A DNA stretch of 43,981 nt, taken from a virus. Its lineage: Duplodnaviria > Heunggongvirae > Uroviricota > Caudoviricetes. Below the pieces are notes generated by a model. That model was not told the origin of the DNA and did not search any database. It was given only the letters and a program-made list of their open reading frames with translations. The number at the start of each line of letters is the position of its first letter. The stretch's first letter is position 1. The position numbers were made by a program, and so were the translations under genes. Below, one piece after another: positions 9,029 through 40,697 of the stretch. The stretch spans positions 1 through 43,981 of IMG/VR virus record IMGVR_UViG_3300045988_012512. One strand, written 5' to 3'.

Positions 9029-9057
9029 TTGCACACCCCAATATAATAGGGTACTAT
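9029..9057 (+). promoter_or_regulatory. sigma70-type promoter (TTGCAC-17-TACTAT) for the plus-strand island
   Basis: Canonical spacing; same promoter architecture recurs at 18527, 29673 and 30772. Confidence 0.55.
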
Positions 9058-9087
9058 TCACTTACACCAACAATGAAGGGGTTTAAA

Positions 9088-9279
9088 ATGTCCAGTTTAC
9101 CAGTTTCCTTAATTCTGTTTGCACTGCTCGCTTATTTCGCGCCTTTCCTGGTTGCGTACTTCCGTAACCATAAAGCGAAGTTAGCGATATTCATGGCTAA
9201 TCTGTTTCTTGGTTGGGTTCTGCTGCCGTGGGTATTTATCTTAATCTGGGCGTGCAACTCGAATGTCAAAGAGAAGTGA
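9088..9279 (+). CDS. superinfection-immunity-like small membrane protein
   Basis: Two hydrophobic helices with AYFRNH...ANLFLGWVLLPWVFILIWA, resembling the Imm superinfection-immunity family; AAGGGG RBS before the ATG at 9088 (ORF track starts at 9073). Confidence 0.55.
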   Translation: MSSLPVSLILFALLAYFAPFLVAYFRNHKAKLAIFMANLFLGWVLLPWVFILIWACNSNVKEK

Positions 9280-9317
9280 GCTAGTATAGGACAAATCCTA
9301 AACACGAGGAAGTAAGC

Positions 9318-10448
9318 ATGGCCCAGAAGAAAATAACCGACGAACAGTTACAGGAAGAATTGAACGCCGGGATGAAGAATGTAGACATCGCCCGTAAATA
9401 CGGCATCTCAGACCGCGTTATTCGTATCCGTAAAGCGAAGCTGGCTAAGAAAGGCGTAGGTCACGGGCGAGACGTTAGTCACCTTGTGCCCGATGGCTAC
9501 AAGATTAAGGGTACATCGTCTCTGGTGGACGAGTTCGGCAACACTAAGTTGCAATGGGTTAAGACCGACACCGATGCCGAACGTCAGGTAGAGTTGATGA
9601 AAGCCGTAATCGAAGGAATGAAATCAGAGATTACGCCAGTCGCCCCTGTTAAAGCGGCACGCGCCAAACGTGACGATAAACTACTCAATCTTTACACTGT
9701 GTCTGATTTTCATCTCGGTATGCTGGCATGGGCCGATGAGAGCGGCGACGACTGGGATATGAAGATTGCAGAAGACCTGTTCTCTCGATGGTTCGACGCG
9801 GCGTTTCAGAAAGCACCGGACGCGGGAACAGGAGTTATTAACCTTCTGGGCGACCTCGCTCACTTCGATAGTCTGGATGCAGTTACACCTGCAAGCGGGC
9901 ATGTTCTTGATGCGGACACGCGCTATCAGAAACTTGTACGCTATATGATTCGGATGGTCCGCCGTGTCATTGATATGGCGCTGGTTAAGCATAAAAATGT
10001 TCGCTTGCTTATCGTGCAAGGGAACCACGACGAAAGCGGAATGATTTGGTTGGCTGAGATGTTCAGTACGCTGTATGACAACGAGCCGCGGGTGTTCGTC
10101 GATACGTCGCCGGATGTTTACAAGATGGTGCAACACGGCAAAACGACGCTGTTCTTTCATCACGGTCACAAAGCACGCTTCGACGCTATCGAACCAGTTA
10201 TGATTGCCAAGTTCCGCAAAGCGTTCGGCGAGAGTATTTACAGCTACGCCCACGTAGGCCATCTGCACCACCAGAAGATTGTAGAAAGCCGTAACATGAT
10301 TGTTGAGCAACACCGCACCTTAGCGGCTAAAGACGCCTACGCCTCTCGCGGCGGATGGATGTCGGGCCGCAGTGCAAATGTAATTACTTATAGCGCCGAA
10401 TATGGCGAGGTCGCACGTTTAACTATTTCACCGGAGATGCTGGGATGA
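9318..10448 (+). CDS. HTH domain fused to calcineurin-like (SbcD/Mre11-type) metallophosphoesterase
   Basis: N-terminal HTH (VDIARKYGISDRVIRIRKAKL); five phosphoesterase motifs SDFHLG, GDLAHFD, GNHDE, HHGH, GHLHH. Confidence 0.75.
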   Translation: MAQKKITDEQLQEELNAGMKNVDIARKYGISDRVIRIRKAKLAKKGVGHGRDVSHLVPDGYKIKGTSSLVDEFGNTKLQWVKTDTDAERQVELMKAVIEGMKSEITPVAPVKAARAKRDDKLLNLYTVSDFHLGMLAWADESGDDWDMKIAEDLFSRWFDAAFQKAPDAGTGVINLLGDLAHFDSLDAVTPASGHVLDADTRYQKLVRYMIRMVRRVIDMALVKHKNVRLLIVQGNHDESGMIWLAEMFSTLYDNEPRVFVDTSPDVYKMVQHGKTTLFFHHGHKARFDAIEPVMIAKFRKAFGESIYSYAHVGHLHHQKIVESRNMIVEQHRTLAAKDAYASRGGWMSGRSANVITYSAEYGEVARLTISPEMLG

Positions 10449-10933
10449 AAGATATTGTAATTTTCGATTTAGACGGGACATTGGCCGACGGTACCCATCG
10501 CTTACACCTGTTACCAAAAGATAACTACGGAGAAACGTGGGCGTGGAAGCCATTTAACATGGCCTGCAAAGATGACGCTCCGATATACGACAATATCCAT
10601 TTGTGTAGCGTACTGTGGCATTCCGGACTTACTATAATTATCCTTACCGGGCGAAGTGATGACGCTGAGGAGGAGACTCGCGAATGGTTACGAGAGAATA
10701 ACGTTAGGTTTGACACGCTAATCATGCGCAGCAAACACGACAACAGAAAAGACATCGTAATTAAAGAAGAGGTGTTGCGTGCTTTCGGACTGGAAAGAAT
10801 CTTGTGTGCGTTCGACGACTCTCCAGCGGTAATAAAGCATTTCCGTGACCTCGGCATAACCGCACACGCAGTTACCGAATACGACTGTAACGGGAACTCT
10901 ACACACTTAAAACCACACGGGAGCGATAAATAA
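10445..10933 (+). CDS. HAD-superfamily phosphatase (T4 polynucleotide kinase 3'-phosphatase-domain-like)
   Basis: FDLDGTLA, IIILTGRSDD, RKDIVIKEEVL and DDSPAV motifs; ATGA overlap with the upstream gene. Confidence 0.7.
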   Translation: MKDIVIFDLDGTLADGTHRLHLLPKDNYGETWAWKPFNMACKDDAPIYDNIHLCSVLWHSGLTIIILTGRSDDAEEETREWLRENNVRFDTLIMRSKHDNRKDIVIKEEVLRAFGLERILCAFDDSPAVIKHFRDLGITAHAVTEYDCNGNSTHLKPHGSDK

Positions 10934-11487
10934 TGGCTAAGGTAATTATTCTTAATGGCCCTGCGGGTTGCGGGAAAGACACGCTTGCTATGGCGCTGGT
11001 AGAAATGGGCTTTGCGAAAGGAACTACCAGTTTCAAGAATCCAATGTTCAATATTGCTTTGGCAGCGTTAGGCCAGGATGCTTACCACGAATTTCTCGAC
11101 GGCTACGACGACCGGGCGCGGAAAGAAAAACCCGAGGGTTTTCTTAATGGGTTGTCCCGCCGCCAGTTAATGATTGCCATTTCTGAGCAATTCATTAAAC
11201 CGGTATTCGGCGATGATTATTTCGGTAAGTATCTTGCTGAAAACTTGCCTGACGGCGACGAAGTTTTTGTAGTGTCCGACGGTGGATTCGCCAGTGAAGT
11301 TGCCCCTATCGTCGCCGCGGGGCATGACGTGCGAATCGTCCGCCTCCATCGTGACGGCTATACGTTCATCGGCGATAGCCGTGGCTATCTGTACGATGTT
11401 AGTGGTGTAAAAGATTACGACACCTACATCATACCGGGTGACGTTAAATCGAACGTTATAGACATTGCTTTAAAATTAGGTTTGTAA
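10933..11487 (+). CDS. deoxynucleoside monophosphate kinase (T4 gene 1-like P-loop kinase)
   Basis: Walker A GPAGCGKDT; further blocks resemble T4 dNMP kinase; TAATG overlap with the HAD gene. Confidence 0.65.
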   Translation: MAKVIILNGPAGCGKDTLAMALVEMGFAKGTTSFKNPMFNIALAALGQDAYHEFLDGYDDRARKEKPEGFLNGLSRRQLMIAISEQFIKPVFGDDYFGKYLAENLPDGDEVFVVSDGGFASEVAPIVAAGHDVRIVRLHRDGYTFIGDSRGYLYDVSGVKDYDTYIIPGDVKSNVIDIALKLGL

Positions 11488-11491
11488 GAAA

Positions 11492-11518
11492 AAGGCCCCG
11501 AAAGGGGCCTTAGTTTTA
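11492..11518. terminator. bidirectional intrinsic terminator (AAGGCCCC-GAAA-GGGGCCTT)
   Basis: 8-bp GC stem flanked by A-run and T-run; lies between convergent genes. Confidence 0.7.
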
Positions 11519-18258: not shown

Positions 18259-18526
18259 CTTATCATTTAAACATAGAAACGGCGTAATCTCAGTAAACCA
18301 GTTACTTTTTACACAAGCAATAGAGTATGGCCCTTCCGAACGCGTCAGCGTAACTACACTCAGGACTTACGTCCCGCTCCGTTACCTGCCCGCGCCGCGG
18401 TCGCTTGTTCATACTTCACAAGCTCAGGTGGAGCTTATCATATTTTCAGTGAAAAGTCAACTATTCGAATAGTTTATTCCAACGTTTACAATTGAGTGGA
18501 ATAACTGGAATACGTAAATAAATAGT

Positions 18527-18555
18527 TTGCGCACACCAACATAATAGGGTACTAT
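18527..18555 (+). promoter_or_regulatory. sigma70-type promoter (TTGCGC-17-TACTAT) for the DnaN-like gene
   Basis: Spacer and -10 region nearly identical to the promoter at 9029. Confidence 0.55.
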
Positions 18556-18582
18556 TCAGTTAACTTAAACAGGAGATGAGAA

Positions 18583-19104
18583 ATGGTTACTACAGTAATT
18601 ACTTTCCCTGCGTATGTAGGGGCAAAAATCTGCAGGGCTAAAAATGATGTGCGCTACTATTTGAACGCTTTTTACATAGACCCTGAAGGATTGATAGTGT
18701 CTACGGACGGTCATAGATTGTTCTGCGACAATGTGAAGACCAATGTTGAGAAAGGGACTCTCATAGACATCAAAGGGAGAGAGCCTTCTAAATTTAACTA
18801 CGCAGAGGTAAACCACGACAACGGCAGTGTAACTTTCTATGACGATAATCGTGCGCTTATATGCACGCTTCCGGTAGATGTTGTAGAAGGAAACTTTCCT
18901 GACTGGAGACGCGTGGCGAACATCACACCGGGTGTTGTCGATAGTATAGGGTTCACTCTGCGCTATTTGGCAGACGCGTACAAGATTTCTAAGGCATACA
19001 AAAATGAAATTGCTCGTTTCGATTTCCAGGACCAAACCAGAGGATGTAAAATACTATTTTCAAACACGGCCTTTATGGTGTTAATGCCTGCGCGATTTAA
19101 ATAA
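18583..19104 (+). CDS. truncated DNA polymerase III beta sliding-clamp (DnaN) homologue
   Basis: DVRYYLN, STDGHRL, FPDWRRV and C-terminal VLMPARFK match E. coli DnaN motifs DVRYYLNG, TDGHRL, FPDYRRV, VMPMRL; AGGAG RBS, own promoter and terminator. Confidence 0.7.
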   Translation: MVTTVITFPAYVGAKICRAKNDVRYYLNAFYIDPEGLIVSTDGHRLFCDNVKTNVEKGTLIDIKGREPSKFNYAEVNHDNGSVTFYDDNRALICTLPVDVVEGNFPDWRRVANITPGVVDSIGFTLRYLADAYKISKAYKNEIARFDFQDQTRGCKILFSNTAFMVLMPARFK

Positions 19105-19108: not shown

Positions 19109-19131
19109 AAGGCCCCATAATGGGGCCTTTT
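19109..19131. terminator. bidirectional intrinsic terminator (AAGGCCCC-ATAAT-GGGGCCTT)
   Basis: GC stem with T-run; lies between convergent genes. Confidence 0.7.
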
Positions 19132-20288: not shown

Positions 20289-21365
20289 TTATACCGACCT
20301 AAGATATTCAGCAACCCTGTTATCTAACGCCGCCATCTCCTTCAAGGTTAAAGGTCTACCAAAAGCGTCGACGGATATTACCCGGAATTCCTCTGGGGAT
20401 ATCCCACTATTCCTGAATATAGCACCGCGGGTAGGTCCGAGTGCTTCATCCACGAACCATGCCGGTTGCTGTTTCAGGAACTCGTAATAGGTGGTGTCTG
20501 CGCTTACCTGCATACCGCCGTCCGCACCCTTAGCCGCGCGTTTTGCACCTTTATCTAGGAAGTCGAACTCCGAACTGATTACCGGTGCAGTGGTACTTCG
20601 ACATCCAAAATGGGCGGGGGGCATCGGACCTTTACCGATTTCCCACGTCATCCCGTCTCTGGCCCTGCAAATCGTACTGGTACGACTGTCCAGCGTTGAC
20701 ACCCATTCGTATTTCTCGATGATGTCGTCGTTCTGGCGGTATGTCTCGTTGCGGGCTTCGTTGGATACGTGAGACAGCGCGGTGCGGATTACCGTAGCCG
20801 CGTTGCGTTCAGAGATGTCCGCCAGCCCACCAGCGCCTACGACATTTTTAACAATCTGCCGTGTGGTTTGGCCCTGAACAAACCCCATCTTAACGCCGGT
20901 TACGAGGCGCGCGGCCTCCGTTTCACCCCAGCCTGCCATCAGCTTAGTGAAATCGACGGGCTTGTCGCTTAATGATAAGGGTTGAAACTCGGCAGCGGAC
21001 CACACCTGTTCGGCGGTAGGCGTAACAAATTCCGCGTCAACGTTGGCGGTCAGTGTTTTTACGTTCCACTCAGCCTCATATGCGGCCAGTTCCTTAAGGT
21101 CTTCTGCCAGTTTTGTTTGCCAGTCACCTGTAAGCCCGGTTAATGCTTCTTCGAGGTCGCGTAACAGTTTATTCAGTCGCGCAGTGCTTCGCCCGTCATC
21201 GCCGAAAAGCAGCACCTGCCGTTTGATTTCGTCCCGCATCTCCTGAATAAACGGTGCGAGGTCTTTCACTTCGCCGGATGCGGCGCGTTGCAGCCATATC
21301 TGGTGGCTGATTAGAGATGTAAGTAAGCTCATAGATAAACCCTGTGGCGCTAAAGTTAATAGCAT
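20289..21365 (-). CDS. minor head morphogenesis protein (Mu F-like)
   Basis: WVSTLDSRTSTICRARDGM...HFGCRST motif; directly downstream of portal. Confidence 0.6.
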   Translation of the reverse strand: MLLTLAPQGLSMSLLTSLISHQIWLQRAASGEVKDLAPFIQEMRDEIKRQVLLFGDDGRSTARLNKLLRDLEEALTGLTGDWQTKLAEDLKELAAYEAEWNVKTLTANVDAEFVTPTAEQVWSAAEFQPLSLSDKPVDFTKLMAGWGETEAARLVTGVKMGFVQGQTTRQIVKNVVGAGGLADISERNAATVIRTALSHVSNEARNETYRQNDDIIEKYEWVSTLDSRTSTICRARDGMTWEIGKGPMPPAHFGCRSTTAPVISSEFDFLDKGAKRAAKGADGGMQVSADTTYYEFLKQQPAWFVDEALGPTRGAIFRNSGISPEEFRVISVDAFGRPLTLKEMAALDNRVAEYLRSV

Positions 21366-21401
21366 ACTATAAGAAAGCCCCTTTCGGGGCTATATGTGAA
21401 C

Positions 21402-25501: not shown

Positions 25502-25684
25502 TCACCCAACTATCTCATCACCAAGCCACGCCGTTTCTCGTATATCATCGACCACACAGGCGGCGTGCTCACGGCTAATTGCAAAAATGTAGAAACTAAA
25601 CTTCTTCCCGTCGGCGTCGATATGGTTAACCGAGTAGGGTTTCCACAGGACACCATCAATTACTACTGGTTTAGGCGACTTCAT
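25502..25684 (-). CDS. hypothetical early protein
   Basis: 60-aa ORF in the coupled early operon. Confidence 0.3.
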   Translation of the reverse strand: MKSPKPVVIDGVLWKPYSVNHIDADGKKFSFYIFAISREHAACVVDDIRETAWLGDEIVG

Positions 25685-26641: not shown

Positions 26642-26670
26642 AATATAATAGGGTCGAGGGTAATAGTCAA
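26642..26670 (-). promoter_or_regulatory. sigma70-type promoter (TTGACT-17-TATATT)
   Basis: Read on the minus strand, immediately after a strong terminator. Confidence 0.5.
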
Positions 26671-26692
26671 CTAGTCATTGCAGAAAATAGAT

Positions 26693-28763: not shown

Positions 28764-28967
28764 TTATCTCTCCTGTTTACCAAGTCGCTTAGGTGAGCAG
28801 ATAGCGCGTACCTCTGAATCGTTTGGCTTGTCACCCTGAAACAGGAAGTGCGCGTTCTCTGCGGCGCGTGCCGCTGACTGGCACGCCTCCATCGAATAAA
28901 ACGTTTCTGATGCAGCGAGTTGCATCTGGCCTGCGGACAATACCCAGATAAATAAGATGCTGGTCAT
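28764..28967 (-). CDS. small protein with N-terminal hydrophobic signal or anchor
   Basis: MTSILFIWVLSAGQMQLAAS hydrophobic N-terminus, two Cys; ATGA coupling. Confidence 0.4.
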   Translation of the reverse strand: MTSILFIWVLSAGQMQLAASETFYSMEACQSAARAAENAHFLFQGDKPNDSEVRAICSPKRLGKQER

Positions 28968-29512
28968 GTCGTCTCTCCACATCTGCGGCACACAAAATAA
29001 TCCTCGTCGGCATCAAGAACCCAATCATGATCACATTCCTGAGTATCGTTTTTCGGTTTATATTCCTTGTCGTCCCACTCACGTTCACCACATTTAGAGC
29101 AAAGCTCGCTACCAGGAACGTTGTTCGGATTGCCTTCGCTGAGAAACAACCCAGGCATAATAATCCAAGAGTGCTCGCATTCCTGGGTATCTTCTTTACG
29201 GCAACCAGATTGCTCCGGCGGTACAGGCGTCTGGGTGCACCGACAATTTACCGTTGGCCCGGGCGCATGTTCGCCAACCACGTAGCTCTGGCCCCTAGAA
29301 ATGTACCCACCCTTACGCACAAGTTTGTAAGCCTCTACATCCCCGGTGGCGGTAGCCAGCGCCATATGTAACTCCTTAATCTGCACCGAAGCATCACGTA
29401 ACTGATTCTTAAGTGACTGCACCTCATGAGCCAGGTCTTCGCTCCGGCTGTTATTTACCTGCTGCCGTAGCTGGTCGATCAGGTACTCGAATATTTCGTT
29501 TTTGTTACTCAT
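28964..29512 (-). CDS. coiled-coil protein with two zinc-ribbon-like repeats
   Basis: QECEHSWII...CSKCGERE and QECDHDWVL...CRRCGET; start at ATG 29512 (ORF track 29533). Confidence 0.45.
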   Translation of the reverse strand: MSNKNEIFEYLIDQLRQQVNNSRSEDLAHEVQSLKNQLRDASVQIKELHMALATATGDVEAYKLVRKGGYISRGQSYVVGEHAPGPTVNCRCTQTPVPPEQSGCRKEDTQECEHSWIIMPGLFLSEGNPNNVPGSELCSKCGEREWDDKEYKPKNDTQECDHDWVLDADEDYFVCRRCGETT

Positions 29513-29642
29513 CAGCTTCACCCCTTTTCTCATCCACCCCGACTAGCAGCGATTTAGTGTCGCCGTCACACACCGAAGTGCTACTAATTATTTCGTAAGC
29601 GTCTACCAGTTCGCCTAAAGTCCAGCTACCGTACCAGCCCAT
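29505..29642 (-). CDS. hypothetical small protein (45 aa)
   Basis: GAGAGGAG RBS before ATG 29642; first gene after the promoter at 29673. Confidence 0.3.
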   Translation of the reverse strand: MGWYGSWTLGELVDAYEIISSTSVCDGDTKSLLVGVDEKRGEADE

Positions 29643-29672
29643 CTCTGTCTCTCCTCTCGCTTGTGTAAATGA

Positions 29673-29701
29673 ATAGTAGCCTATTCTATCTTAGCGTGCA
29701 A
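29673..29701 (-). promoter_or_regulatory. sigma70-type promoter (TTGCAC-17-TACTAT)
   Basis: Same architecture as the promoters at 9029 and 30772. Confidence 0.5.
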
Positions 29702-29858
29702 GTAAATTTTATTGGTGTTTGTATTGTTGTATCTCCCGCAATAGTCGCTTCGATTGTGGCGTTTGGTGAAAGTGTCGCTTTTTGACGACACTAAGTTAAA
29801 GTTGTACGCTGCTGTGTAGCAGCGTAAGTCACTCAGTAAAATCCCAAACTATTGAACA

Positions 29859-30737: not shown

Positions 30738-30771
30738 AACCACCACTCCTCTGTCTCGTTTCGATAAGTGA

Positions 30772-30800
30772 ATAGTATCCTATTATATTGGGGTGTGCAA
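30772..30800 (-). promoter_or_regulatory. sigma70-type early promoter (TTGCAC-17-TACTAT)
   Basis: -35, spacer and -10 nearly identical to the promoter at 9029..9057. Confidence 0.55.
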
Positions 30801-31152
30801 GAGAATAGTTACGTTGCCGTTGTGATTCTTTCGTTTCTTTAAAGAGTACGCAACGCAGTGGGTGGGCGATAGCCCACCCCAGCGGAGTGAAGTACTCTCT
30901 ACCTTGCTTACGGCAACTAAAGAAACTTTTAATTATCAAGTACTTATGAATGGAGGTAAAATTTAAATAGACGGGGTCTTTCTTGTCACTTGCTGTTACT
31001 TTTAGGAAACTTAGATACTAACGTTACCAAGAGTACTGTTTAGCGCCCCGCTTTAGGGCGGGGCTTTAAGTACCCGAGACTTAAGAATAATGTTTCTAAG
31101 TAATTCTGAACTAAGGCCCTTCGATACGTTGATTTTACAGCTACATTTTATT
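30801..31152. promoter_or_regulatory. divergent control region with nested palindromes, AGTAC repeats and a conserved hairpin
   Basis: About 350 bp without credible ORFs between divergent operons; inverted repeat AGAGTAC/GTACTCT around an 8-bp GC hairpin; hairpin element at 31042..31068. Confidence 0.5.
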
Positions 31153-31192
31153 TTGTCAATAGGTTGTGTTTAGTTATTATAGGTGTTATAGT
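31153..31192 (+). promoter_or_regulatory. tandem sigma70-type promoters (TTGTCA-16-TATTAT and TTGTGT-17-TATAGT) for the plus-strand operon
   Basis: Hexamers with canonical spacing upstream of the gene at 31222. Confidence 0.45.
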
Positions 31193-31221
31193 TGTTTAAC
31201 TTGATAAAGAGGGCGTGTAAA

Positions 31222-31401
31222 ATGACACAGAAAGAAGTAGCAGACTTAATCGGAGTTTCCACTATGACTCTTAATCGCTGGCTTCGGTCCGGTAAGTTCC
31301 CGGAGTGTTGCCGTGTTATTAACGGCTACCGGCAGCCAGGTACGTTTGACCGCGCTACCGTGGAGGCGTGGATTAAGGAGAACGTGAAAGATGCTAACTA
31401 A
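31222..31401 (+). CDS. small HTH DNA-binding protein (AlpA/excisionase-like)
   Basis: MTQKEVADLIGVSTMTLNRWLRSGKFP; AGAGGG RBS (ORF track starts at 31192 with a non-ATG codon). Confidence 0.5.
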   Translation: MTQKEVADLIGVSTMTLNRWLRSGKFPECCRVINGYRQPGTFDRATVEAWIKENVKDAN

Positions 31402-31666
31402 ATTCCAGAAACACATATTAATGTGTGCGCGCAGACTTACCGAGGCGAACGGTGCTTTTACGGTAGATGGGCTTCGTAGATACCGGTTAGATAATTACGG
31501 TGTAAATCCGATTAAACATGCTTTAAATGTTCTTGAGCAACACGGAGAGGTTCTTAATAAAGGAAAGTTTTATCGGGCAACAAGAGCAACGCCGATTACA
31601 GAGAAAGCGAGAAGTATTGGAAAAGTGTTGGTCCCCGAGGGTAATATCTCCCGCGACCTGGAATAA
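31391..31666 (+). CDS. hypothetical protein
   Basis: 91-aa ORF overlapping the upstream stop. Confidence 0.4.
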   Translation: MLTKFQKHILMCARRLTEANGAFTVDGLRRYRLDNYGVNPIKHALNVLEQHGEVLNKGKFYRATRATPITEKARSIGKVLVPEGNISRDLE

Positions 31667-31724
31667 AAGAAAGCCCCGACGCGGTGAACGCCGAGGCCAA
31701 ATTACTTACTGAAGGAAATACAAC

Positions 31725-33992
31725 ATGTCCGATGTAATTTTATCCTACTCGTGGTCTCGTCGCAACGCGCGGGCAGAGAAAAAGGATATAAACGTCAGAA
31801 CCACACACACGGCAACACTGGACGACCTGAAAGAGTTAATCCAGCCGCTTGATGCTGTCCGTGACGGAATTAACCCGAAGACAGCGCCCGGTTATATCAC
31901 CGCCGCGTGCGACTCAACGCACAGCACCGTAAAAGACCCGGAAACCGGTGACTTTAAGCGAGCGCGTAAAGGCTTCTTCTATCGCTGTGACGCGTCTGTA
32001 AGCAAATCATCGCTGGCGTATCTGGACTTTGACAGCGCAACGCCGGAAGAGTATCAGGAAGCGGTGCGCCTGGTTAAGCGTAGCCGCCAGGCTATGTGTC
32101 TCTACACCACGGCATCCCATACCGATGAGTCACCGCGCTTTCGCGTCGTCATGCCGCTGGGCCGCCCGGTCGAAGGGGGCGACATCATCCGCATACGTCA
32201 TGGATTGCTGGAGCACTTCTTCAAAGGCATGGGCGCTGACCGTAGCGGGTTCACTTTGTCTCAGCCCATGTACCTTCCTCCGGTAGGCTCTCAGGTTATC
32301 TGGTCGCGCCGTAACGACCTTATTGACCCGGAAGAGTTACTGGAAGGCATCCCCGCCGTTGACGTTAGCAGCGCATCTGACTACCAGATACCGGAAGAAC
32401 TGCGCACTGCATTTACTGATGCGTTCGAGGCACTGGCGTTCGAATACGGCGGCATCATGACGCCGCGTGGCCTTAAGATGCCCGCCACACCGGAACACGC
32501 AGAAAACTACAGCGACCCGACCCCGCGCCCGGACGACTTCCTGCTGTGCTTCCCGCGCGAGGGATATGAAGCGCCGAACGTAACGATGATTCACGACACC
32601 GACATCACGGCAACCGAAGGCATGTCGCCGAAAGAGGTGTGGAAGTATGCGTGTGATGCGACCGGACTGCCGTTCAGTGAAGTCGCAGAGGCCATCGGAT
32701 GGGGCGCGCGTGAAGCCGTCTCATGCAGCCTGGATGACCTTGAAGACGACGAGGACTCAGAGGAGGACGAGTTACCGGAACCGGTAAAGGCTGATTTCGT
32801 CGTTGAGGGGTACATGCCGTCGGATTGTATCTGGGATATTGTTGGGGAGTCTGGCACGTATAAATCATTCTATACGCTGGGGATGATGTACCTGAGCGCC
32901 GCCGGATACCGGTTTGCCGGGGCAGATACCCAGCGTTGCCACCATTTCTATATCGACGGTGAGGGCGGTGCCACTACACGCACCCGTATTGATGCACTCG
33001 CGGCTAAATATGGCGAGGAAGGTAAAGATTATGTACATGTTATCGATATGGGTGAAGTCGGAAAACTGAAAAGCCTGATTAAGTTAATGCGCGAAACTGC
33101 GGGTGATGAACCCATCGGCATGGTCGCGTTCGACACCCTTAACCAGACGCTGGCCCTGACGATTGATAAGTTCGACGAGAACAGTTCATCAACGGCAATC
33201 GGCATGGGTAAAGTTATCGCCATCCTGAAAGAAGTACGCGACGCAACTAAAGCCGCGGCAGGCGTTGTACACCATACGCCGAAGGGTGGAAAGAAAGCCC
33301 GTGGCAGTGGAGCATTGTATGCTGGTGTCGACGTGGAACTGACAATCGAACGTGCTACCGACCGTCAGATAAACGTATACCACTCTAAATTTAAGCACGG
33401 GCCTCAACAGAAGACGGTTGGCATGGTACTGGAGTCGGTACAGTTTCGTGAAGCACCGCCGCCGAAAGAGTACCGCGCGGTTGAGTTCCTCGGTAGCACA
33501 GAGGAATACGGCACAATAGTAAACCTCGACCTGCCTGAGCCGCACAAGGCGCTTGTGCTGATGCCGTGGGGCTTCGAGCCGTTCAAGACTGATGAGGAGA
33601 AAGAGCGGGAAGAAGGGTTAACTAACGAAGGTAAACAAAATGTACGTAAAACCGTAGAGAACGCCGTCAACAGTTCCGAGTCCACTATACTCGCGGCGTT
33701 TGAACTGGCGGAGGGGACCTACAACGGCAACGAAGGTATCACGGTATCCGCGGCGAATAAGCTCGCACAGTCTGACCCCAACGCAAAGGCGTTTAACTCC
33801 AAAGAAGCCATAGAACGCGGGAAGATTAAGAAAATGGTTGAGGCTGGGTATCTTGTTCCGGGTACTGACGAAAACAATCAGATAATCCCAGGCCGTTACA
33901 GACTTAACACCCGGATAACGGATAACAAGATTCCGAAGACAATATACGAACCCAATGAGATGCTGACAGTGACAGAGGAGGATTTGGAATGA
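31725..33992 (+). CDS. replication protein: primase-like N-terminal domain plus RecA-like ATPase/helicase domain
   Basis: N-terminal LAYLDFD and SHTDESPRFRV (primase-polymerase-like); central GESGTYKS P-loop and MVAFDTL Walker-B-like segment. Confidence 0.55.
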   Translation: MSDVILSYSWSRRNARAEKKDINVRTTHTATLDDLKELIQPLDAVRDGINPKTAPGYITAACDSTHSTVKDPETGDFKRARKGFFYRCDASVSKSSLAYLDFDSATPEEYQEAVRLVKRSRQAMCLYTTASHTDESPRFRVVMPLGRPVEGGDIIRIRHGLLEHFFKGMGADRSGFTLSQPMYLPPVGSQVIWSRRNDLIDPEELLEGIPAVDVSSASDYQIPEELRTAFTDAFEALAFEYGGIMTPRGLKMPATPEHAENYSDPTPRPDDFLLCFPREGYEAPNVTMIHDTDITATEGMSPKEVWKYACDATGLPFSEVAEAIGWGAREAVSCSLDDLEDDEDSEEDELPEPVKADFVVEGYMPSDCIWDIVGESGTYKSFYTLGMMYLSAAGYRFAGADTQRCHHFYIDGEGGATTRTRIDALAAKYGEEGKDYVHVIDMGEVGKLKSLIKLMRETAGDEPIGMVAFDTLNQTLALTIDKFDENSSSTAIGMGKVIAILKEVRDATKAAAGVVHHTPKGGKKARGSGALYAGVDVELTIERATDRQINVYHSKFKHGPQQKTVGMVLESVQFREAPPPKEYRAVEFLGSTEEYGTIVNLDLPEPHKALVLMPWGFEPFKTDEEKEREEGLTNEGKQNVRKTVENAVNSSESTILAAFELAEGTYNGNEGITVSAANKLAQSDPNAKAFNSKEAIERGKIKKMVEAGYLVPGTDENNQIIPGRYRLNTRITDNKIPKTIYEPNEMLTVTEEDLE

Positions 33993-34186
33993 GCGGTAAA
34001 TTTAAAGAAGTAAGCGACGAACTGAAAGGCAATAAATACACCAACCACAGAGGCGAAGTAGTTGAAGTTCTTAACGTAGTTCCTTATGGGCGCGGGTATC
34101 ATGTTGTGTACAGTTACACAGAGGCTTACAGCGTGTACTGCGGGTTAGGTAAGTTTCGCAAAAGATACCCGATAAAGGTGCAATAA
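33989..34186 (+). CDS. hypothetical protein
   Basis: 65-aa ORF, ATGA-coupled to the primase/helicase gene. Confidence 0.35.
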   Translation: MSGKFKEVSDELKGNKYTNHRGEVVEVLNVVPYGRGYHVVYSYTEAYSVYCGLGKFRKRYPIKVQ

Positions 34187-34191
34187 AAAGA

Positions 34192-34210
34192 AAGGGGCAT
34201 TAAGCCCCTT
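34192..34210. terminator. bidirectional intrinsic terminator (AAGGGGC-ATTAA-GCCCCTT)
   Basis: Hairpin between convergent genes, T-runs on both sides. Confidence 0.6.
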
Positions 34211-34415
34211 CACCTAACGCCAGCCACTTGGCGTCTACTTCCAGCACTTCCGCCAGTTTAAACAGCGTTGCCGGGCGGACGTCCTGAGTTACACCGAGAG
34301 CCAGCTGGTTAATCGCACCCTGGGAAACGCCAGTCAGGACAGCCAGCCGGCGCTGGGAGATGCCGAGTTCTTTACGGCGTTGCTCTACACGGATTCCTAG
34401 TTCAGATGGTTGCAT
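34200..34415 (-). CDS. XRE-family (Cro/CI-type) HTH transcriptional regulator
   Basis: LGISQRRLAVLTGVSQGAINQL HTH; AAGGAG RBS; divergent from the promoter at 34480. Confidence 0.65.
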   Translation of the reverse strand: MQPSELGIRVEQRRKELGISQRRLAVLTGVSQGAINQLALGVTQDVRPATLFKLAEVLEVDAKWLALGEGA

Positions 34416-34479
34416 GTCAATTACTCCTTAGTCAGTTGATATGTGAATAGTACCATATTAATTATTTTAGAAAAGCCCA

Positions 34480-34508
34480 TTGACATGTGAATAGTTCGCT
34501 ATTATAGT
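34480..34508 (+). promoter_or_regulatory. consensus sigma70 promoter (TTGACA-17-TATAGT)
   Basis: Perfect -35; overlaps the second copy of the ATGTGAATAGT direct repeat. Confidence 0.6.
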
Positions 34509-34538
34509 TAGCCCATACCAAACGAGAGGAGAGACAAA

Positions 34539-34700
34539 ATGAAGTTCAGAGTAGACATGCAACCAACAGAAGAAATGTTAAAAGCCGGCATAGACCAACT
34601 GATATACTACATCCCTGGCATCGAGGATGAAGTCGATGAAGAGCAACTATCAGACGCCGTTTATTTTATCTGGCAAGCAATGATTCAAGCGTCAAAATAA
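34539..34700 (+). CDS. hypothetical small protein (53 aa)
   Basis: GAGAGGAGAG RBS before ATG 34539. Confidence 0.35.
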   Translation: MKFRVDMQPTEEMLKAGIDQLIYYIPGIEDEVDEEQLSDAVYFIWQAMIQASK

Positions 34701-34715
34701 ACAGGAGAACAAATA

Positions 34716-35237
34716 ATGTTAGAGAAATTCTTAGTATTACTGGAACGTTTCGTAGTTGCACATGAACTGATTGCTGCGAACAGTGTGAAACAACCGACTA
34801 ATAAATCTGTAGGTGAATTGACTGTTGACGTCGCGGTAACTGGGGTGGAGACAGTTAAAAAAGAACTGGCTAAAGCACTTGAAGAAGTCGAGAAGGCGAA
34901 AGAACTCCCAGTCGAAGGTGAAGACCTCGTTGACACTAAACCGGCGGAAGAAGAGAAGCCGAAACGCAAGCCGCGTAAAGCTAAAGTAGAGGAGCAGACG
35001 CCAGAACCGGAAGAAGAGAAGGAAGAAGTCAATTATCAGTCTCTGCGCGACCAGATTCAGGCTATCGACGATGCGATTAACGAAGGTCCGAGTGACACCG
35101 CGTGTGATGATTCCGATGAACTGCTGGAAGAGTTCACTGGTAAGAAGATGAAGATTGCTGCTATTAAAGACGAAGACCTCGCCGAGTACCTGGAACGCCT
35201 GACAGCAATCAAGAACAAGTATTTCGAAGAAGAATAA
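34716..35237 (+). CDS. highly acidic Glu/Asp-rich protein
   Basis: AGGAG RBS; long Glu/Asp/Lys-rich segments. Confidence 0.45.
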   Translation: MLEKFLVLLERFVVAHELIAANSVKQPTNKSVGELTVDVAVTGVETVKKELAKALEEVEKAKELPVEGEDLVDTKPAEEEKPKRKPRKAKVEEQTPEPEEEKEEVNYQSLRDQIQAIDDAINEGPSDTACDDSDELLEEFTGKKMKIAAIKDEDLAEYLERLTAIKNKYFEEE

Positions 35238-35243
35238 TCATCT

Positions 35244-35264
35244 GGCGGCCTTCGGGCCGCTTTA
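35244..35264 (+). terminator. intrinsic terminator
   Basis: GCGGCC-TTCG-GGCCGC followed by TTTAACT. Confidence 0.45.
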
Positions 35265-35280
35265 ACTGAGGGTCGGAATT

Positions 35281-35559
35281 ATGATTTACCAACTCTACCG
35301 CGCCTTTGACAGGCGGGATAACACGGAGGCGTTGTGGTTATTGCGTGCGCCGTCCGGTGCACACCAGATGGAAGAGATGGCGTACTTAGGAAAAGTGCCA
35401 CGGCCTAAAGATATAGGCCGCCACGTGTCGCAGATTAAGCGCACGACTTTCGCCAAACCTGACTTTTACGTCTTCGAGTCGATGTATGGCTGGGCCATGC
35501 ATTGCGACCATAAGACAAGACATTTAATTGACCAGTGGGAGAACAGGGTATGTTTGTAA
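35281..35559 (+). CDS. hypothetical protein
   Basis: 92-aa ORF. Confidence 0.4.
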   Translation: MIYQLYRAFDRRDNTEALWLLRAPSGAHQMEEMAYLGKVPRPKDIGRHVSQIKRTTFAKPDFYVFESMYGWAMHCDHKTRHLIDQWENRVCL

Positions 35560-35690
35560 TTATGTATTCAATCGGTGAGGAAGAGTACGAACACAGTAGA
35601 TACCTTACATCCGCAGAGGCTGAGAATATAATACACGAACTTGACGCTGACAGTTTTGACTACGCATGGATTGAGGAGATTACGGAATGA
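35550..35690 (+). CDS. hypothetical small acidic protein (46 aa)
   Basis: ATG 35550 with GGAGAACAGGG upstream; ATGA-coupled to the exonuclease gene. Confidence 0.3.
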   Translation: MFVIMYSIGEEEYEHSRYLTSAEAENIIHELDADSFDYAWIEEITE

Positions 35691-36928
35691 TTCTTAAAGA
35701 ACGTGGTGGCAATAACGATGTGCACGCAATACTGTCGCCGTCTGGCGCTAAAAAGTGGTTAAGTTGCGCGGCATCACTGGCATGTGAAAAAGATATTCCT
35801 AACACGTCCGGTAAAGACGCCGTATTAGGCACGGCTATGCACACGATAGCGGAGATGCACCTTAACCAGTACATCAAAGGCACTGCGCTGCCGTTAGAGC
35901 GTGAAGTCGGCGCTTACGTGATGGATGAGGGTAAAGGTCAGATTAAGGCGCTAATCAGTCCGATGAAAGGCGCGGTGCTTATTACGGCGGACATGATTGA
36001 GCAGGTGCGCAAGTACACCGACTACTGCAAAGCGATTATCGATGTAGCTACTTACGCCAAACTCGAGATGCGCGTCAATCTTACTGAGGTATTGCACCCC
36101 GGTTACGAAGGCGTTGAGACATTCGGAACCGCTGACCTTGTTGCCGTCCAGGAACTGGCGAACATCGACGAGCACATGCTTATCATCGGCGACCTGAAAA
36201 CTGGACGGCATCGTGTCGAAGCGAAAGAAAACAAGCAGCTTATGCTATACGCTCTCGGTGTTTATCGCCGACTAAAGAGACGTTATAACATCACAGTTGT
36301 TCGTCTGGTCATCTTCCAGCCGTACGCGGGTGGCGCGTCGGAGTGGGACATCTCGGTCGAAGGTCTGGAACTGTTCGCCAAGTTCGCACAGAAACGCGCA
36401 CTGTTGGCTCTTGATGCATATTTCCGCGGTAAGAAGAACCTGAAAGCGTCTGACTTCAAGCCGTCGGTCGATGGTTGTCAGTGGTGTCGGTTCTCTGAAC
36501 AATGCGCCGCGCGTACAAAGACGGTCAATTCTGTACTGGCGGAAGAACTGGAAGACGACTTTGCACTGGAACTGACGCCAGAGCAACTCGTAGCTGAGTA
36601 TGAGAAGCTGCCGTTGTTGCGCCAGCACATCGACAAGGTTGAGAAAGCTATGGTCGCCGCGTTGCATTCTGGTAAGAAAGTGCCGGGGTACAAATTGGTT
36701 GAGGGTCGTCCAGGTAATCGTGCGTGGAAAGATGCCGATGCGGTATTCGAGAAGTACGGTACTATGCTGCAAAAGGTAGTTCTGATGACACCAACCGAAG
36801 CGGTTAAAGTAATACCAGAAGAAGAACTGAAAGACTTCATTACCCGTAAGCCAGGAGCGCCATGCGTCGCAACGGCGGATGACAAGCGTCCTGAGTGGAA
36901 TCAGGTAACAGAGGAGGATTTGGAATGA
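35687..36928 (+). CDS. Cas4/RecB-like PD-(D/E)xK exonuclease with Cys cluster
   Basis: N-terminal LSPSGAKKWLSC, IGDLKTGRH core, C-terminal CQWCRFSEQC. Confidence 0.65.
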   Translation: MILKERGGNNDVHAILSPSGAKKWLSCAASLACEKDIPNTSGKDAVLGTAMHTIAEMHLNQYIKGTALPLEREVGAYVMDEGKGQIKALISPMKGAVLITADMIEQVRKYTDYCKAIIDVATYAKLEMRVNLTEVLHPGYEGVETFGTADLVAVQELANIDEHMLIIGDLKTGRHRVEAKENKQLMLYALGVYRRLKRRYNITVVRLVIFQPYAGGASEWDISVEGLELFAKFAQKRALLALDAYFRGKKNLKASDFKPSVDGCQWCRFSEQCAARTKTVNSVLAEELEDDFALELTPEQLVAEYEKLPLLRQHIDKVEKAMVAALHSGKKVPGYKLVEGRPGNRAWKDADAVFEKYGTMLQKVVLMTPTEAVKVIPEEELKDFITRKPGAPCVATADDKRPEWNQVTEEDLE

Positions 36929-37098
36929 TGGTTTATATTCTCACGCGGTATCACCGCCGATACTCTATTCAAGAACTTGATATTGTTTCTGTCCACGCTA
37001 AACGCGCCGACGCCGACAAAATTGCAGAAGAGAAGAACTCGAAGCATGAGGCGGTGCAGCCATATATTTATAAGGTGGTTCCGAAGAAACTTAAATAA
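36925..37098 (+). CDS. hypothetical small protein
   Basis: GGAGGA RBS before ATG 36925 (ORF track starts at 36895). Confidence 0.35.
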   Translation: MMVYILTRYHRRYSIQELDIVSVHAKRADADKIAEEKNSKHEAVQPYIYKVVPKKLK

Positions 37099-37102
37099 AG
37101 TG

Positions 37103-37131
37103 TTGACACCTGAATAGCAAGCTATTATAGT
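37103..37131 (+). promoter_or_regulatory. consensus sigma70 promoter (TTGACA-17-TATAGT) for SSB and polymerase genes
   Basis: Perfect -35 with canonical spacing. Confidence 0.6.
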
Positions 37132-37190
37132 TCTAATCACTGGCCGGGCAGCTTCCCGGAGTAAACGAAACTGAAAAGCGAGAAATCACG

Positions 37191-37823
37191 ATGGGTATTA
37201 AACTGAATCTGCGTAAAGTAAACACTGCTTGGGTTAACGTATTCGAACGCGAAAAAGACCGTGAAAACGATGATGGCTCAATCACTAAAGGCCAGTACAG
37301 CGCGACTATCATCCTTCCGTCTGACCATGCTCAAATCGACGCGCTCTACGACACCGTTTACGCTGTAGTTGAAGAAGCGTTAGGTGCAGCCGCCGCCGAG
37401 AAGTGGATGAAGTCCAACTACGGCGAAGGTAAGCACATGGATAAATGTGCGATTAAAGATATCGCTGAGCGCGACAATCCGTTTGAAGACTTCCCGGAAG
37501 GCTTCTACTTCAAAGCGAAGGCACAAAAACAGCCGCTGATTGTAACCTCTAAAAAAGGTGAGACTCAGGTAGAGCAGGACTTCAACGTAGACGGCGAACA
37601 GATTGAAGGTGAACAGGTTTACAGCGGCTGCGTAGCTAACGTAAGCGTTGAAATCTGGTTCAGCCAGAAATACAAAGTTCTCGGTGTTAACCTGCTGGCG
37701 ATTAAATACGTCGGCGAAGGTAAGGCGTTCGGTGGTTCTAAAGTCGCCGCAAGCGTCGACGACCTGGAAGACGACCTTGAGGATGATGGGCCAGCACCAC
37801 GCCGCGAACGTCGTCGCCGCTAA
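37191..37823 (+). CDS. single-stranded DNA-binding protein (T7 gp2.5-like)
   Basis: Block similarity to T7 gp2.5; acidic C-terminal DDLEDDLEDD. Confidence 0.55.
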   Translation: MGIKLNLRKVNTAWVNVFEREKDRENDDGSITKGQYSATIILPSDHAQIDALYDTVYAVVEEALGAAAAEKWMKSNYGEGKHMDKCAIKDIAERDNPFEDFPEGFYFKAKAQKQPLIVTSKKGETQVEQDFNVDGEQIEGEQVYSGCVANVSVEIWFSQKYKVLGVNLLAIKYVGEGKAFGGSKVAASVDDLEDDLEDDGPAPRRERRRR

Positions 37824-40413: not shown

Positions 40414-40697
40414 TGACCCCGGAAGGCAAAATACAGAAATACGCGAAAGAGCGATTCGAGGCCCTCGGCGGCCTCGTTCGTAAACTTTCCTATGAGGGGC
40501 GCTCCGGCGCTCCCGACCTGCTGGTGATTCTCCCCGGCGGCATCGTCTGGTTCGTCGAGGTTAAGAAAGACGAAAACACGGAACCAGACCCACACCAGTT
40601 ACGAGAGCATGAGCGGATGCGTAAACGTGGCGCGAATGTTTTTGTCGTCGGATCGTTTAAACAGGTTGACGACCTAATAGCGAACTATTATAGTTAG
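40413..40697 (+). CDS. VRR-NUC domain nuclease
   Basis: GAPDLLVILPGG...VWFVEVKK PD-(D/E)xK core. Confidence 0.65.
   Translation: MTPEGKIQKYAKERFEALGGLVRKLSYEGRSGAPDLLVILPGGIVWFVEVKKDENTEPDPHQLREHERMRKRGANVFVVGSFKQVDDLIANYYS
40666..40694 (+). promoter_or_regulatory. sigma70-type promoter (TTGACG-17-TATAGT) inside the 3' end of the VRR-NUC gene
   Basis: Canonical spacing; -10 identical to the promoters at 34480 and 37103. Confidence 0.45.

What the first reader, a model, noticed from the sequence alone, without database searches (positions are those of the whole stretch)
9029..9057. A family of near-identical phage promoters with conserved spacer and discriminator
At least eight sites share -35 TTGCAC or TTGACA, a 17-bp spacer and -10 TACTAT (9029, 18527, 29673, 30772) or TATAGT (34480, 37103, 40666), plus 26642 (TTGACT-17-TATATT). 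Several share spacer sequence (CCCCAATATAATAGG) and the following TTCA. Conservation beyond the hexamers suggests recognition by an additional factor or a recently duplicated promoter cassette. The promoters also mark the accessory islands as independently transcribed.
Basis: seen in the sequence. Interest (0 to 1): 0.5.

Follow-up and report, generated by a model that had tools for sequence, protein, structure and literature searches.

The report
Phage promoters sharing a repressor operator
Nine promoters of this virulent E. coli phage carry the same 14-bp inverted repeat over their core, most likely the binding site of a small Cro-like repressor the phage encodes next to two of these sites; this is an ordinary kind of control not yet described for this phage group.

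Summary
All eight sites exist as described. The window is a whole Kagunavirus genome (Guernseyvirinae, about 91% identical to phages K1G and K1H). The shared feature is not a conserved spacer and discriminator. It is a 14-bp dyad, AATAG-N4-CTATT: 7 exact copies against about 0 expected, plus 2-4 degenerate copies. All copies are intergenic and overlap the -10/spacer, or once the -35, of sigma-70-like promoters. The dyad sits in at least three registers relative to the -35. In alignments of orthologous promoters its half-sites are the least variable columns (0.004, against 0.127 for N4 and 0.031 for the -35). It is the top-ranked dyad in Kagunavirus and Jerseyvirus, and a relaxed form occurs in Cornellvirus. 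This argues against recent duplication as the general cause and for a dimeric DNA-binding factor. The best candidate is a 71-aa HTH_3 protein at 34200-34415 (-). Its nearest solved relative is 434 Cro, and its own divergent promoter region holds two dyads. I infer promoter occlusion with autoregulation. Nothing has been tested experimentally: no start-site or binding data exist. The opposite-strand islands are independently transcribed. Verdict: a new member of a known kind, of moderate interest.

The parts
9029..9057 (+). Class-A promoter P1 (TTGCAC-17-TACTAT). The dyad AATAGGGTACTATT lies at 9045-9058. P1 drives the opposite-strand island: a superinfection-immunity-like protein, a metallophosphoesterase, a polynucleotide kinase and an ATP-binding protein (9088-11487).
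   Evidence: 24.5 bits; PF14373
18527..18555 (+). Class-A promoter P2 (TTGCGC-17-TACTAT). The dyad lies at 18543-18556. P2 drives a single opposite-strand gene, 18583-19104 (phrog_3007).
   Evidence: 24.3 bits
29673..29701 (-). Class-A promoter P3 (TTGCAC-17-TACTAT on the minus strand). The dyad lies at 29672-29685. P3 sits upstream of the leftward small genes 29505-29642 and 28964-29533.
   Evidence: (21.7 bits)
30772..30800 (-). Class-A promoter P4 (TTGCAC-17-TACTAT on the minus strand). The dyad lies at 30771-30784. P4 sits upstream of the leftward small genes starting at about 30746.
   Evidence: 25.1 bits
34446..34459 (-). Weaker dyad AATATGGTACTATT (one conserved mismatch) in front of the HTH_3 gene's own ribosome-binding site. 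It lies just downstream of TTCACA(34491-34486)-16-TAAAAT(34469-34464). This is the inferred autoregulatory operator.
   Evidence: (17.4 bits)
34480..34508 (+). Class-B promoter P6 (TTGACA-17-TATAGT). The dyad lies at 34490-34503. P6 is divergent from the HTH_3 gene and drives 34539-36928 (53 aa, 173 aa, 92 aa, exonuclease).
   Evidence: (23.6 bits)
37103..37131 (+). Class-B promoter P7 (TTGACA-17-TATAGT). The dyad lies at 37113-37126. P7 drives the DUF2815 gene, the DNA polymerase and a VRR-NUC nuclease gene.
   Evidence: (24.0 bits)
40666..40694 (+). Class-B promoter P8 (TTGACG-17-TATAGT). The dyad lies at 40676-40689. P8 drives a 63-aa gene and the DNA helicase.
   Evidence: (21.8 bits)
26642..26675 (-). 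Promoter P9 (TTGACT-17-TATATT on the minus strand). A one-mismatch dyad AATAGTCAACTAGT (26662-26675) lies over the -35, and a lone CTATT half-site lies at the -10. This is the weakest family member.
   Evidence: 11.6 bits, within the null range
34200..34415 (-). Gene for a 71-aa Cro/C1-type HTH_3 protein. This is the proposed factor that binds the dyads.
   Evidence: PF01381, 2.3e-12; 434 Cro, 7.9e-6 over residues 6-68; pLDDT 85, five helices; TM 0.77-0.83 to 434 Cro
34191..34211 (-). Intrinsic terminator of the HTH_3 gene. It has a T tract on the minus strand only.
31222..31401 (+). Gene for a 59-aa HTH_17 protein, the first gene of the rightward early operon. This is the rival candidate factor.
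   Evidence: (PF12728, 1.3e-8)
11492..11511 (.). Bidirectional terminator that closes island 1.
19109..19129 (.). Bidirectional terminator that closes island 2.

Best explanation
The sites are host sigma-70 promoters of the early/middle and accessory transcription units of a Kagunavirus. Each carries a 14-bp dyad operator over its core: AATAG-N4-CTATT, or ATAATAG-N4-CTATTCA when the flanks are included.

A dimer of the phage's 71-aa Cro-like HTH_3 protein (gene at 34200-34415, minus strand) binds the dyad. Because the dyad covers the -10 and spacer (once the -35), the bound dimer occludes RNA polymerase. This turns down the replication, small-gene and accessory-island operons together.

The protein also limits its own synthesis. 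It does so through a conserved weaker operator (AATAT half-site) at its own promoter.

Shown here: the dyads, their significance, positions and conservation, and the fold and location of the HTH gene. Inferred: that this protein binds them, that it represses, and when it acts.
For: - **Dyad significance.** There are 7 exact copies against about 0 expected. It is the top dyad in an unbiased enumeration in the window, K1G, AG11 and the fetched Kagunavirus/Jerseyvirus loci examined.
- **Location.** Every exact copy is intergenic, 30-90 nt upstream of a co-oriented start codon.
- **Independent of the promoter hexamers.** The dyad sits 10 nt after the -35 in class A and 4 nt after it in class B. 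It sits 7 nt after it in AG11 site 14512, and over the -35 at 26662. Its asymmetric flanks are inverted between classes A and B.
- **Operator-like conservation.** In ortholog alignments not selected for the dyad, the half-site columns vary least: 0.004, against N4 0.127, -35 0.031 and the rest of the spacer 0.092. N4 takes 21 forms in Kagunavirus.
- **Candidate factor.** HTH_3 matches Pfam at 2.3e-12. Its nearest solved relatives are 434 Cro (also 71 aa), the 434 repressor N-terminal domain and P22 c2. From textbook knowledge, these bind 14-18-bp dyads with uncontacted central bases. The hits are, with fold TM 0.77-0.83.
- **Linkage.** Its divergent intergenic region holds one dyad over the opposite promoter and a weaker one before its own ribosome-binding site. 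The same layout is seen in the window, in L039 (78% identical protein), in Jerseyvirus AG11 (49%) and in Cornellvirus Shemara (41%).
- **Against the other HTH.** No HTH_17 homologue was detected in Cornellvirus. That genus still has dyad-bearing promoters, with a relaxed motif found 5 times against 0.72 expected.
Against: - There is no binding, start-site or expression data for any Guernseyvirinae phage.
- The recognition helix differs between Kagunavirus (SQGAINQ) and Jerseyvirus (SQSLITH), yet the half-site AATAG is the same. This is not what simple covariation predicts.
- The Cornellvirus motif is loose and AT-rich. In several sites it reads as a direct rather than an inverted repeat.
- The right half-site overlaps the -10 hexamer, so part of its conservation is owed to sigma-70.
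- Class-A hexamers are weak (8/12). Those sites might need an activator, not a repressor.
- P9 (26642) scores within the null range.
Confidence: 0.6

Rival explanations
1. The dyad is bound by the other phage DNA-binding protein, the 59-aa HTH_17 (31222-31401). This is the first product of the rightward immediate-early operon. It would act as an activator or repressor of delayed-early promoters.
For: It is a genuine HTH protein (PF12728, 1.3e-8). It is made first, from a near-consensus promoter that lacks the dyad. It is 71% conserved in Jerseyvirus, which uses the same half-site. The weak hexamers of class A would suit an activator.
Against: No dyad lies near its own promoter (nearest exact copy about 380 bp away). 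No homologue was detected in Cornellvirus, which keeps dyad-like promoters. Xis/AlpA-like HTH_17 proteins are not typically symmetric dimers on 14-bp dyads (my own knowledge). A site covering the -10 is incompatible with known activation modes. The MerR mode would require a 19-20-bp spacer, and the spacer here is 17 bp.
Confidence: 0.12
2. No extra factor is involved. The shared sequence reflects common descent or duplication of a promoter cassette, together with sigma-70 constraints on the -10 region.
For: Sites 9029 and 30772 are identical at 39 of 40 nt. The right half-site overlaps the -10 hexamer. Relatives are 90% identical overall, so much of the conservation is uninformative. The AG11 record annotates these sites simply as RpoD-like promoters.
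Against: The left half-site lies in the spacer, which sigma-70 does not read, yet it is invariant. N4 and the remaining spacer vary. The dyad occurs in three or more registers and both orientations. It persists across genera with 41-49% protein identity and in non-orthologous promoters. Perfect two-fold symmetry is not explained by duplication.
Confidence: 0.12
3. A host (E. coli or Salmonella) transcription factor, or a resident cryptic-prophage repressor, recognises the dyad.
For: The half-site is the same in phages of two host genera, although the phage HTH helices differ. Some Kagunavirus isolates plate only on K-12 cured of cryptic prophages (PMC11990801). The DicA N-terminal domain is 33% identical to the phage protein, and its operators have the same 5-4-5 geometry.
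Against: I know of no host factor with an AATAG-N4-CTATT consensus (recall only, not a database test). The dicA-dicC region holds no such dyad; the best match there has 2 mismatches. Two dyads sit at the phage's own HTH gene, which points to a phage factor.
Confidence: 0.08

Closest known systems
Phage 434 Cro and its OR/OL operators (also P22 Cro/c2)
   Same: It is a single-domain five-helix HTH_3 protein of the same length (71 aa). Identity is 36-40% in structural alignment, and the sequence E-value is 7.9e-6. The target is a 14-bp dyad with a variable, presumably uncontacted centre. The inner AG-N4-CT matches the P22 operator pattern AAG-N4-CTT (my recall). The operators overlap core promoter elements, and a weaker operator lies at the protein's own promoter.
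   Different: There is no paired CI repressor, no integrase and no tripartite OR. The operators are single and are dispersed over about nine promoters around a 44-kb virulent genome, rather than clustered in one immunity region. The half-site is AATAG, not ACAA. Binding has not been tested.
RpoD-type promoters annotated in Jerseyvirus AG11 (NC_041991)
   Same: Features annotated 'similar to consensus RpoD promoter' lie at the orthologous positions (for example 25608-25636 and 29818-29846). They contain the same dyad.
   Different: That annotation records only the hexamers. The dyad, and its link to the HTH gene, is not noted.
Restriction-modification controller (C) proteins and anti-CRISPR-associated (Aca) repressors
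   Same: These are small HTH_3 dimers of the same fold (C.BclI and C.AhdI, TM about 0.8). They autoregulate through dyads at their own promoter.
   Different: They control one operon. Here the dyad marks most early, middle and accessory promoters of the genome.
Proposed 'Cro-like repressor' ORF49 of Jerseyvirus SGP-C (PMC8790156)
   Same: It is the orthologous gene. The paper calls it a lambda Cro-like regulator and reports turbid plaques, immune survivors and possibly episomal carriage.
   Different: No operator or target promoters were defined there. The lysogeny claim is not established, and other papers treat the group as strictly lytic.

Membership tests
Sigma-70 (RpoD) promoter | -35 and -10 hexamers close to TTGACA/TATAAT with a 17 +/- 1 bp spacer | tested here: met
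   Class B scores 10-11/12 and P9 scores 10/12. Class A scores only 8/12 (TTGCAC, TACTAT), but has an exact 17-bp spacer and a G at -14.
Sigma-70 (RpoD) promoter | Located upstream of, and co-oriented with, a transcription unit that has no other source of transcription | tested here: met
   All sites are intergenic, 30-90 nt before a start codon. The two islands face against their neighbours.
Sigma-70 (RpoD) promoter | Transcription starts 6-8 nt downstream of the -10 | not testable with these tools
   No start-site or RNA-seq data for Guernseyvirinae were found.
Cro/CI-type (HTH_3, 434/P22-like) repressor-operator system | Regulator has the five-helix HTH_3 fold | tested here: met
   PF01381 at 2.3e-12. 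434 Cro at 7.9e-6. Model pLDDT 85 with five helices. TM 0.77-0.83 to 2cro.
Cro/CI-type (HTH_3, 434/P22-like) repressor-operator system | Dyad-symmetric operator of 14-18 bp with conserved outer bases and a variable centre | tested here: met
   AATAG-N4-CTATT. Half-site variability is 0.004 against 0.127 for N4, and N4 takes 21 forms.
Cro/CI-type (HTH_3, 434/P22-like) repressor-operator system | Operators overlap core promoter elements | tested here: met
   The dyad spans about -19 to -6 in class A and -25 to -12 in class B. It lies over the -35 at P9.
Cro/CI-type (HTH_3, 434/P22-like) repressor-operator system | Operator(s) at the regulator's own promoter (autoregulation) | tested here: met
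   Two dyads lie in 34416-34538. The layout is conserved in four lineages.
Cro/CI-type (HTH_3, 434/P22-like) repressor-operator system | The protein binds the operator as a dimer and represses | not testable with these tools
   This needs gel shift or footprinting, in vitro transcription, or genetics.
Lambdoid immunity region (divergent cI-cro pair with lysogeny functions) | A second, CI-type repressor divergent from cro, plus integrase or other maintenance functions | tested here: not met
   The divergent neighbour is a 53-aa protein with no HTH. No further HTH was found among the 30 small ORFs scanned. No integrase is annotated in K1G or AG11.
MerR-type activation from the spacer | Over-long 19-20-bp spacer, with the dyad centred between the hexamers | tested here: not met
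   The spacer is 17 bp in all members.
Symmetry-driven bidirectional promoter | -10 hexamers of the two strands occupy essentially the same bases (geometry recalled from the literature, not checked here) | tested here: not met
   The half-sites are 9 bp apart centre to centre. No usable -35 lies on the opposite strand at class-B sites.

The most novel reading that the evidence does not exclude
The Cro-like protein and its nine or so dispersed operators form a genome-wide silencing switch. This would let phages regarded as strictly virulent (Kagunavirus and Jerseyvirus, both used for therapy and biocontrol) enter an immune carrier or episomal state.

The repressor gene is convergent with the unterminated rightward early operon. 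That arrangement would provide the bistable element. The switch would explain the turbid plaques and immune survivors reported for the Jerseyvirus SGP-C.
Probability: 0.12. Interest if true: 0.65.

Novelty: new member of a known kind. Interest (0 to 1): 0.36.

Why it matters
Guernseyvirinae phages (Kagunavirus, Jerseyvirus) are widely isolated for therapy, for food biocontrol and as small synthetic-biology chassis. Their gene regulation is essentially undescribed.

A single 14-bp operator that marks nearly all non-structural promoters, paired with a candidate 71-aa repressor, gives a compact and testable regulatory map. It identifies which units are co-regulated. It provides a handle for engineering expression. 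It also explains why a 'repressor' gene keeps appearing in phages judged lytic, which bears on safety calls based on the presence of a repressor gene.

Mechanistically this is a conventional Cro-type occlusion system, so it would not surprise a specialist.

Tried and rejected
- **Hexamer matches as evidence.** The consensus scan finds as many sites as shuffles in two of the three segments, and class A is below its threshold. I therefore relied on the dyad instead.
- **Alternative -10 inside the class-A spacer.** TATAAT with ATCACA at 9019 is not conserved at the other class-A sites.
- **RNA hairpin reading of the dyad.** It would form a 5-bp AU-rich stem that mostly lies upstream of the inferred start. 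I rejected this by inspection.
- **Symmetric covariation between Kagunavirus (TAATAG) and Cornellvirus (TATTAG).** This was suggested by three sites. More sites showed that the Cornellvirus left half is variable and that some pairs are direct repeats. I claim only a relaxed A[AT]TA[GC]-N4-[GC]TA[AT]T motif.
- **Extra constraint in the class-A spacer (ACCCCAAYAT).** It is shared only by some paralogues. Across 66 distinct class-A sites, only A.AT next to the dyad is conserved.
- **Scan of IMG/VR for AATAG-N4-CTATTATAGT.** Contigs with multiple hits were nearly all the same Kagunavirus/Jerseyvirus-type genomes of about 24-45 kb, plus one 5.8-kb fragment. Single hits elsewhere look like chance.
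- **Cross-immunity through DicA of the Qin prophage.** The operator geometry is the same but the half-site differs, and there is no AATAG dyad in that region.
- **Literature searches.** I searched on Jerseyvirinae/SETP3/MB78 promoters, on transcriptomes and on repressors. None described the dyad or mapped start sites. The Jerseyvirinae taxonomy paper is not held. I recall older work on MB78 promoters interacting with a phage factor, but could not retrieve it.
- **Structure prediction with the four-sequence alignment.** I used the single sequence instead.

Full report
**What the window is.** The 43,981-bp window is essentially a complete genome of a Kagunavirus (Guernseyvirinae). It is about 91% identical to E. 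coli phages K1G, K1H and K1ind, and lies in the opposite orientation to the K1G record.

Structural and packaging genes run leftward over most of 1-24,700. Two short gene islands face the other way, at 9088-11487 and 18583-19104. Small early genes and lysis genes run leftward from about 30,940. Replication genes run rightward from about 31,200 to 42,340.

**Checking the observation.** Site 18527 has TTGCGC and site 40666 has TTGACG. Sites 29673, 30772 and 26642 are leftward promoters seen on the plus strand.

On hexamers alone the case is weak. A consensus scan finds about as many 'promoters' as in shuffled sequence in two of three segments. The TTGCAC-17-TACTAT sites score only 8/12, below the scan's threshold.

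What is far beyond chance is a sequence embedded in all of them, the inverted repeat AATAG-N4-CTATT.
- There are 7 exact and 4 one-mismatch copies, against 1.07 expected.
- No exact copies occur in Markov shuffles.
- PWM scores are 21.7-25.1 bits, against a null maximum of 18.9.
- An unbiased count of every 5+gap+5 inverted repeat ranks it first in the window.

**Anatomy.** There are two architectures.
- Class A comprises 9029+, 18527+, 29673- and 30772-. Its form is TTGCAC-N10-AATAGGNTACTATT. The -10 (TACTAT) lies inside the right arm, and the dyad spans roughly -19 to -6.
- Class B comprises 34480+, 37103+ and 40666+. Its form is TTGACA-N4-AATAG-N4-CTATTATAGT. The dyad lies 6 bp further upstream (-25 to -12), and its asymmetric flanks (ATAATAG / CTATTCA) are in the opposite orientation.
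- At 26642 a one-mismatch dyad lies over the -35, and only a half-site lies at the -10. This member scores within the null range.
It lies in front of a leftward gene.

Every exact copy is intergenic and 30-90 nt upstream of a co-oriented start codon.

**Conservation.** The same dyad is the top-ranked inverted repeat in four groups:
- K1G, with 6 copies.
- The fetched Kagunavirus IMG/VR loci that were examined.
- A lineage whose regulator is 78% identical.
- Jerseyvirus (AG11 and relatives), where it is a 16-bp perfect TAATAG-N4-CTATTA and occurs in a third register (TTGCGC-N7-dyad).

The central four bases take 21 forms in Kagunavirus.

I aligned orthologous promoters anchored by BLAST on the flanks, not on the dyad. 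In these alignments the ten half-site columns are the least variable of all.

| Columns | Minor-allele fraction |
|---|---|
| Half-sites | 0.004 |
| -10 outside the dyad | 0.028 |
| -35 | 0.031 |
| Downstream | 0.057 |
| Rest of spacer | 0.092 |
| Upstream | 0.113 |
| N4 | 0.127 |

The left arm lies in spacer DNA that sigma-70 does not read. Its invariance, together with perfect symmetry, a free centre and variable register, is the signature of an operator for a dimeric protein. It is not the signature of a recently copied cassette. Only 9029 and 30772 share a longer block (39 of 40 nt), and they do so equally in K1G.

Cornellvirus lacks the exact dyad but has a relaxed form, A[AT]TA[GC]-N4-[GC]TA[AT]T, at orthologous promoters. 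It occurs 5 times against 0.72 expected. I do not claim clean covariation there.

**The candidate factor.** Pfam scans of 30 small ORFs found two DNA-binding proteins.

The first is a 71-aa HTH_3 protein at 34200-34415 on the minus strand. It is a lone antisense gene within the rightward replication region.
- Its nearest solved relatives are 434 Cro (also 71 aa, E = 7.9e-6 over residues 6-68), the 434 repressor DNA-binding domain and P22 c2.
- A single-sequence model has five helices with pLDDT 85. It superposes on 434 Cro at TM 0.77-0.83, and on C-proteins, SinR and HipB at a similar level.
- By textbook knowledge, these proteins bind 14-18-bp dyads as dimers and leave the central bases uncontacted.
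- Its 123-bp divergent intergenic region contains two dyads. A perfect one covers the spacer/-10 of the rightward promoter P6 and abuts the -35 (TTCACA) of a leftward promoter. The weaker one (AATAT arm) sits at the leftward promoter's start region.
- The same two-site layout recurs in the 78%, 49% (Jerseyvirus) and 41% (Cornellvirus) orthologues.

The second is a 59-aa HTH_17 protein at 31222-31401.
- It is the first gene after a pair of back-to-back near-consensus promoters (31132-31180) that carry no dyad.
- It has no dyad nearby.
- No homologue was detected in Cornellvirus.

**Proposed mechanism.** The shown and inferred steps are kept apart here.

Shown:
- A dispersed set of about nine promoters carries one dyad over the core promoter.
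- A Cro-like gene is flanked by two of these dyads.

Inferred:
- The Cro-like dimer binds the dyads and blocks RNA polymerase.
- This jointly turns down the accessory islands (superinfection-immunity-like protein, phosphoesterase, kinases, the 173-aa protein). It also turns down the leftward small genes and the three replication units (exonuclease; DUF2815 and polymerase; helicase).
- The protein limits itself through the weaker site.

The dyad-free promoters at 31132-31180 would be immediate-early.

The HTH gene's terminator has a T tract only on its own strand. Rightward early transcription may therefore run antisense through the gene. I did not pursue this possible layer of control.

**Weaknesses.**
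- The recognition helices of Kagunavirus and Jerseyvirus differ, yet the half-site does not.
- The right arm's conservation is partly due to the -10.
- Class-A hexamers are weak.
- No experimental data exist.

**Rivals.**
- *HTH_17 as the binder.* This is possible but disfavoured by location, by distribution across genera, and by the site covering the -10.
- *No factor, only descent and sigma-70 constraints.* This fails to explain the invariant left arm, the symmetry and the multiple registers.
- *A host or cryptic-prophage factor.* I know of no matching consensus. The Qin dicA-dicC region uses dyads of the same 5-4-5 geometry but a different half-site. One observation keeps the idea alive at low probability: some Kagunavirus isolates plate only on K-12 lacking cryptic prophages (PMC11990801).

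**Comparison with what is known.**
- The AG11 record already annotates the orthologous sites as RpoD-like promoters, so the promoters themselves are not new.
- The SGP-C paper calls the orthologous gene a Cro-like repressor and argues for a temperate or episomal lifestyle, but it defines no operators (PMC8790156).
- Other papers treat these phages as strictly lytic.
- I found no description of the dyad or of its link to the HTH gene.
- The system works like 434/P22 Cro, and it meets the family features that could be tested: fold, dyad type, promoter overlap and an operator at its own promoter.
- It fails the test for a lambdoid immunity region, because there is no CI partner and no integrase.

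**The islands.** Both accessory islands face against the structural operon. Each begins at a class-A dyad promoter and ends at a bidirectional terminator (11492-11511 and 19109-19129).

**Verdict.** This is a new member of a known kind of regulatory system. It gives a useful map for a much-used phage group but is mechanistically conventional. Interest is 0.36.

Noticed in passing
window 37132-37190: The 5' UTR of the DUF2815 gene holds a conserved hairpin (GGCCGGGCAGCTTCCCGGAG). Cornellvirus Shemara has CCTGG...CCAGG there, which is a compensatory change. The hairpin is followed by AAACTGA-like repeats whose copy number varies between relatives. It may be a translational operator or an RNA processing site.
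   Followed up: partly
window 18459-18474: A perfect 16-bp palindrome, AACTATTCGAATAGTT, lies about 70 bp upstream of promoter P2. It consists of the two dyad half-sites in everted order (CTATT-CG-AATAG). It overlaps a one-mismatch dyad at 18452.
   Followed up: no
window 30790-31220: This is a non-coding control region of about 430 bp. It contains two GC-rich hairpins and back-to-back near-consensus promoters: TTGACA-16-TAAAAT leftward at 31159-31132, and TTGTCA-16-TATTAT rightward at 31153-31180. Neither carries the dyad. They are presumably the immediate-early promoters.
   Followed up: partly
window 34186-34415: The HTH_3 gene is convergent with the rightward early operon. Its terminator (34211-34191) has no T tract on the plus strand. 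Rightward transcripts may therefore read antisense through the repressor gene. In Cornellvirus the primase-helicase block is inverted, so the regulator is co-directional with it.
   Followed up: partly
L001 (K1G NC_027993) 33428-33640; RP180 NC_048181 34870-35082: The RefSeq records of K1G and RP180 leave the HTH_3 regulator gene unannotated. Other records call it variously DicA, repressor, transcriptional regulator or hypothetical protein.
   Followed up: yes
window 21358-21371: A one-mismatch dyad, AATAGCATACTATA (17.9 bits, just under the null maximum), lies between a terminator (21391-21376) and the start of the head-morphogenesis gene. It is inside the late operon, and no -35 is evident.
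   Followed up: no
window 9060-9090, 34509-34540, 40695-40730 and others: The leaders downstream of the promoters share ACACCAACA / AACGAGAGGAGA-type sequences before the start codon. These are also seen in Cornellvirus. They are probably a conserved extended ribosome-binding region.
   Followed up: no
L181 (E. coli K-12 Qin prophage) 1352-1434: The dicC-dicA intergenic region contains TTAGT-CATA-ACTAA. This has the same 5-4-5 dyad geometry as the phage operator but a different half-site. The DicA N-terminal domain is 33% identical to the phage HTH_3 protein.
   Followed up: partly
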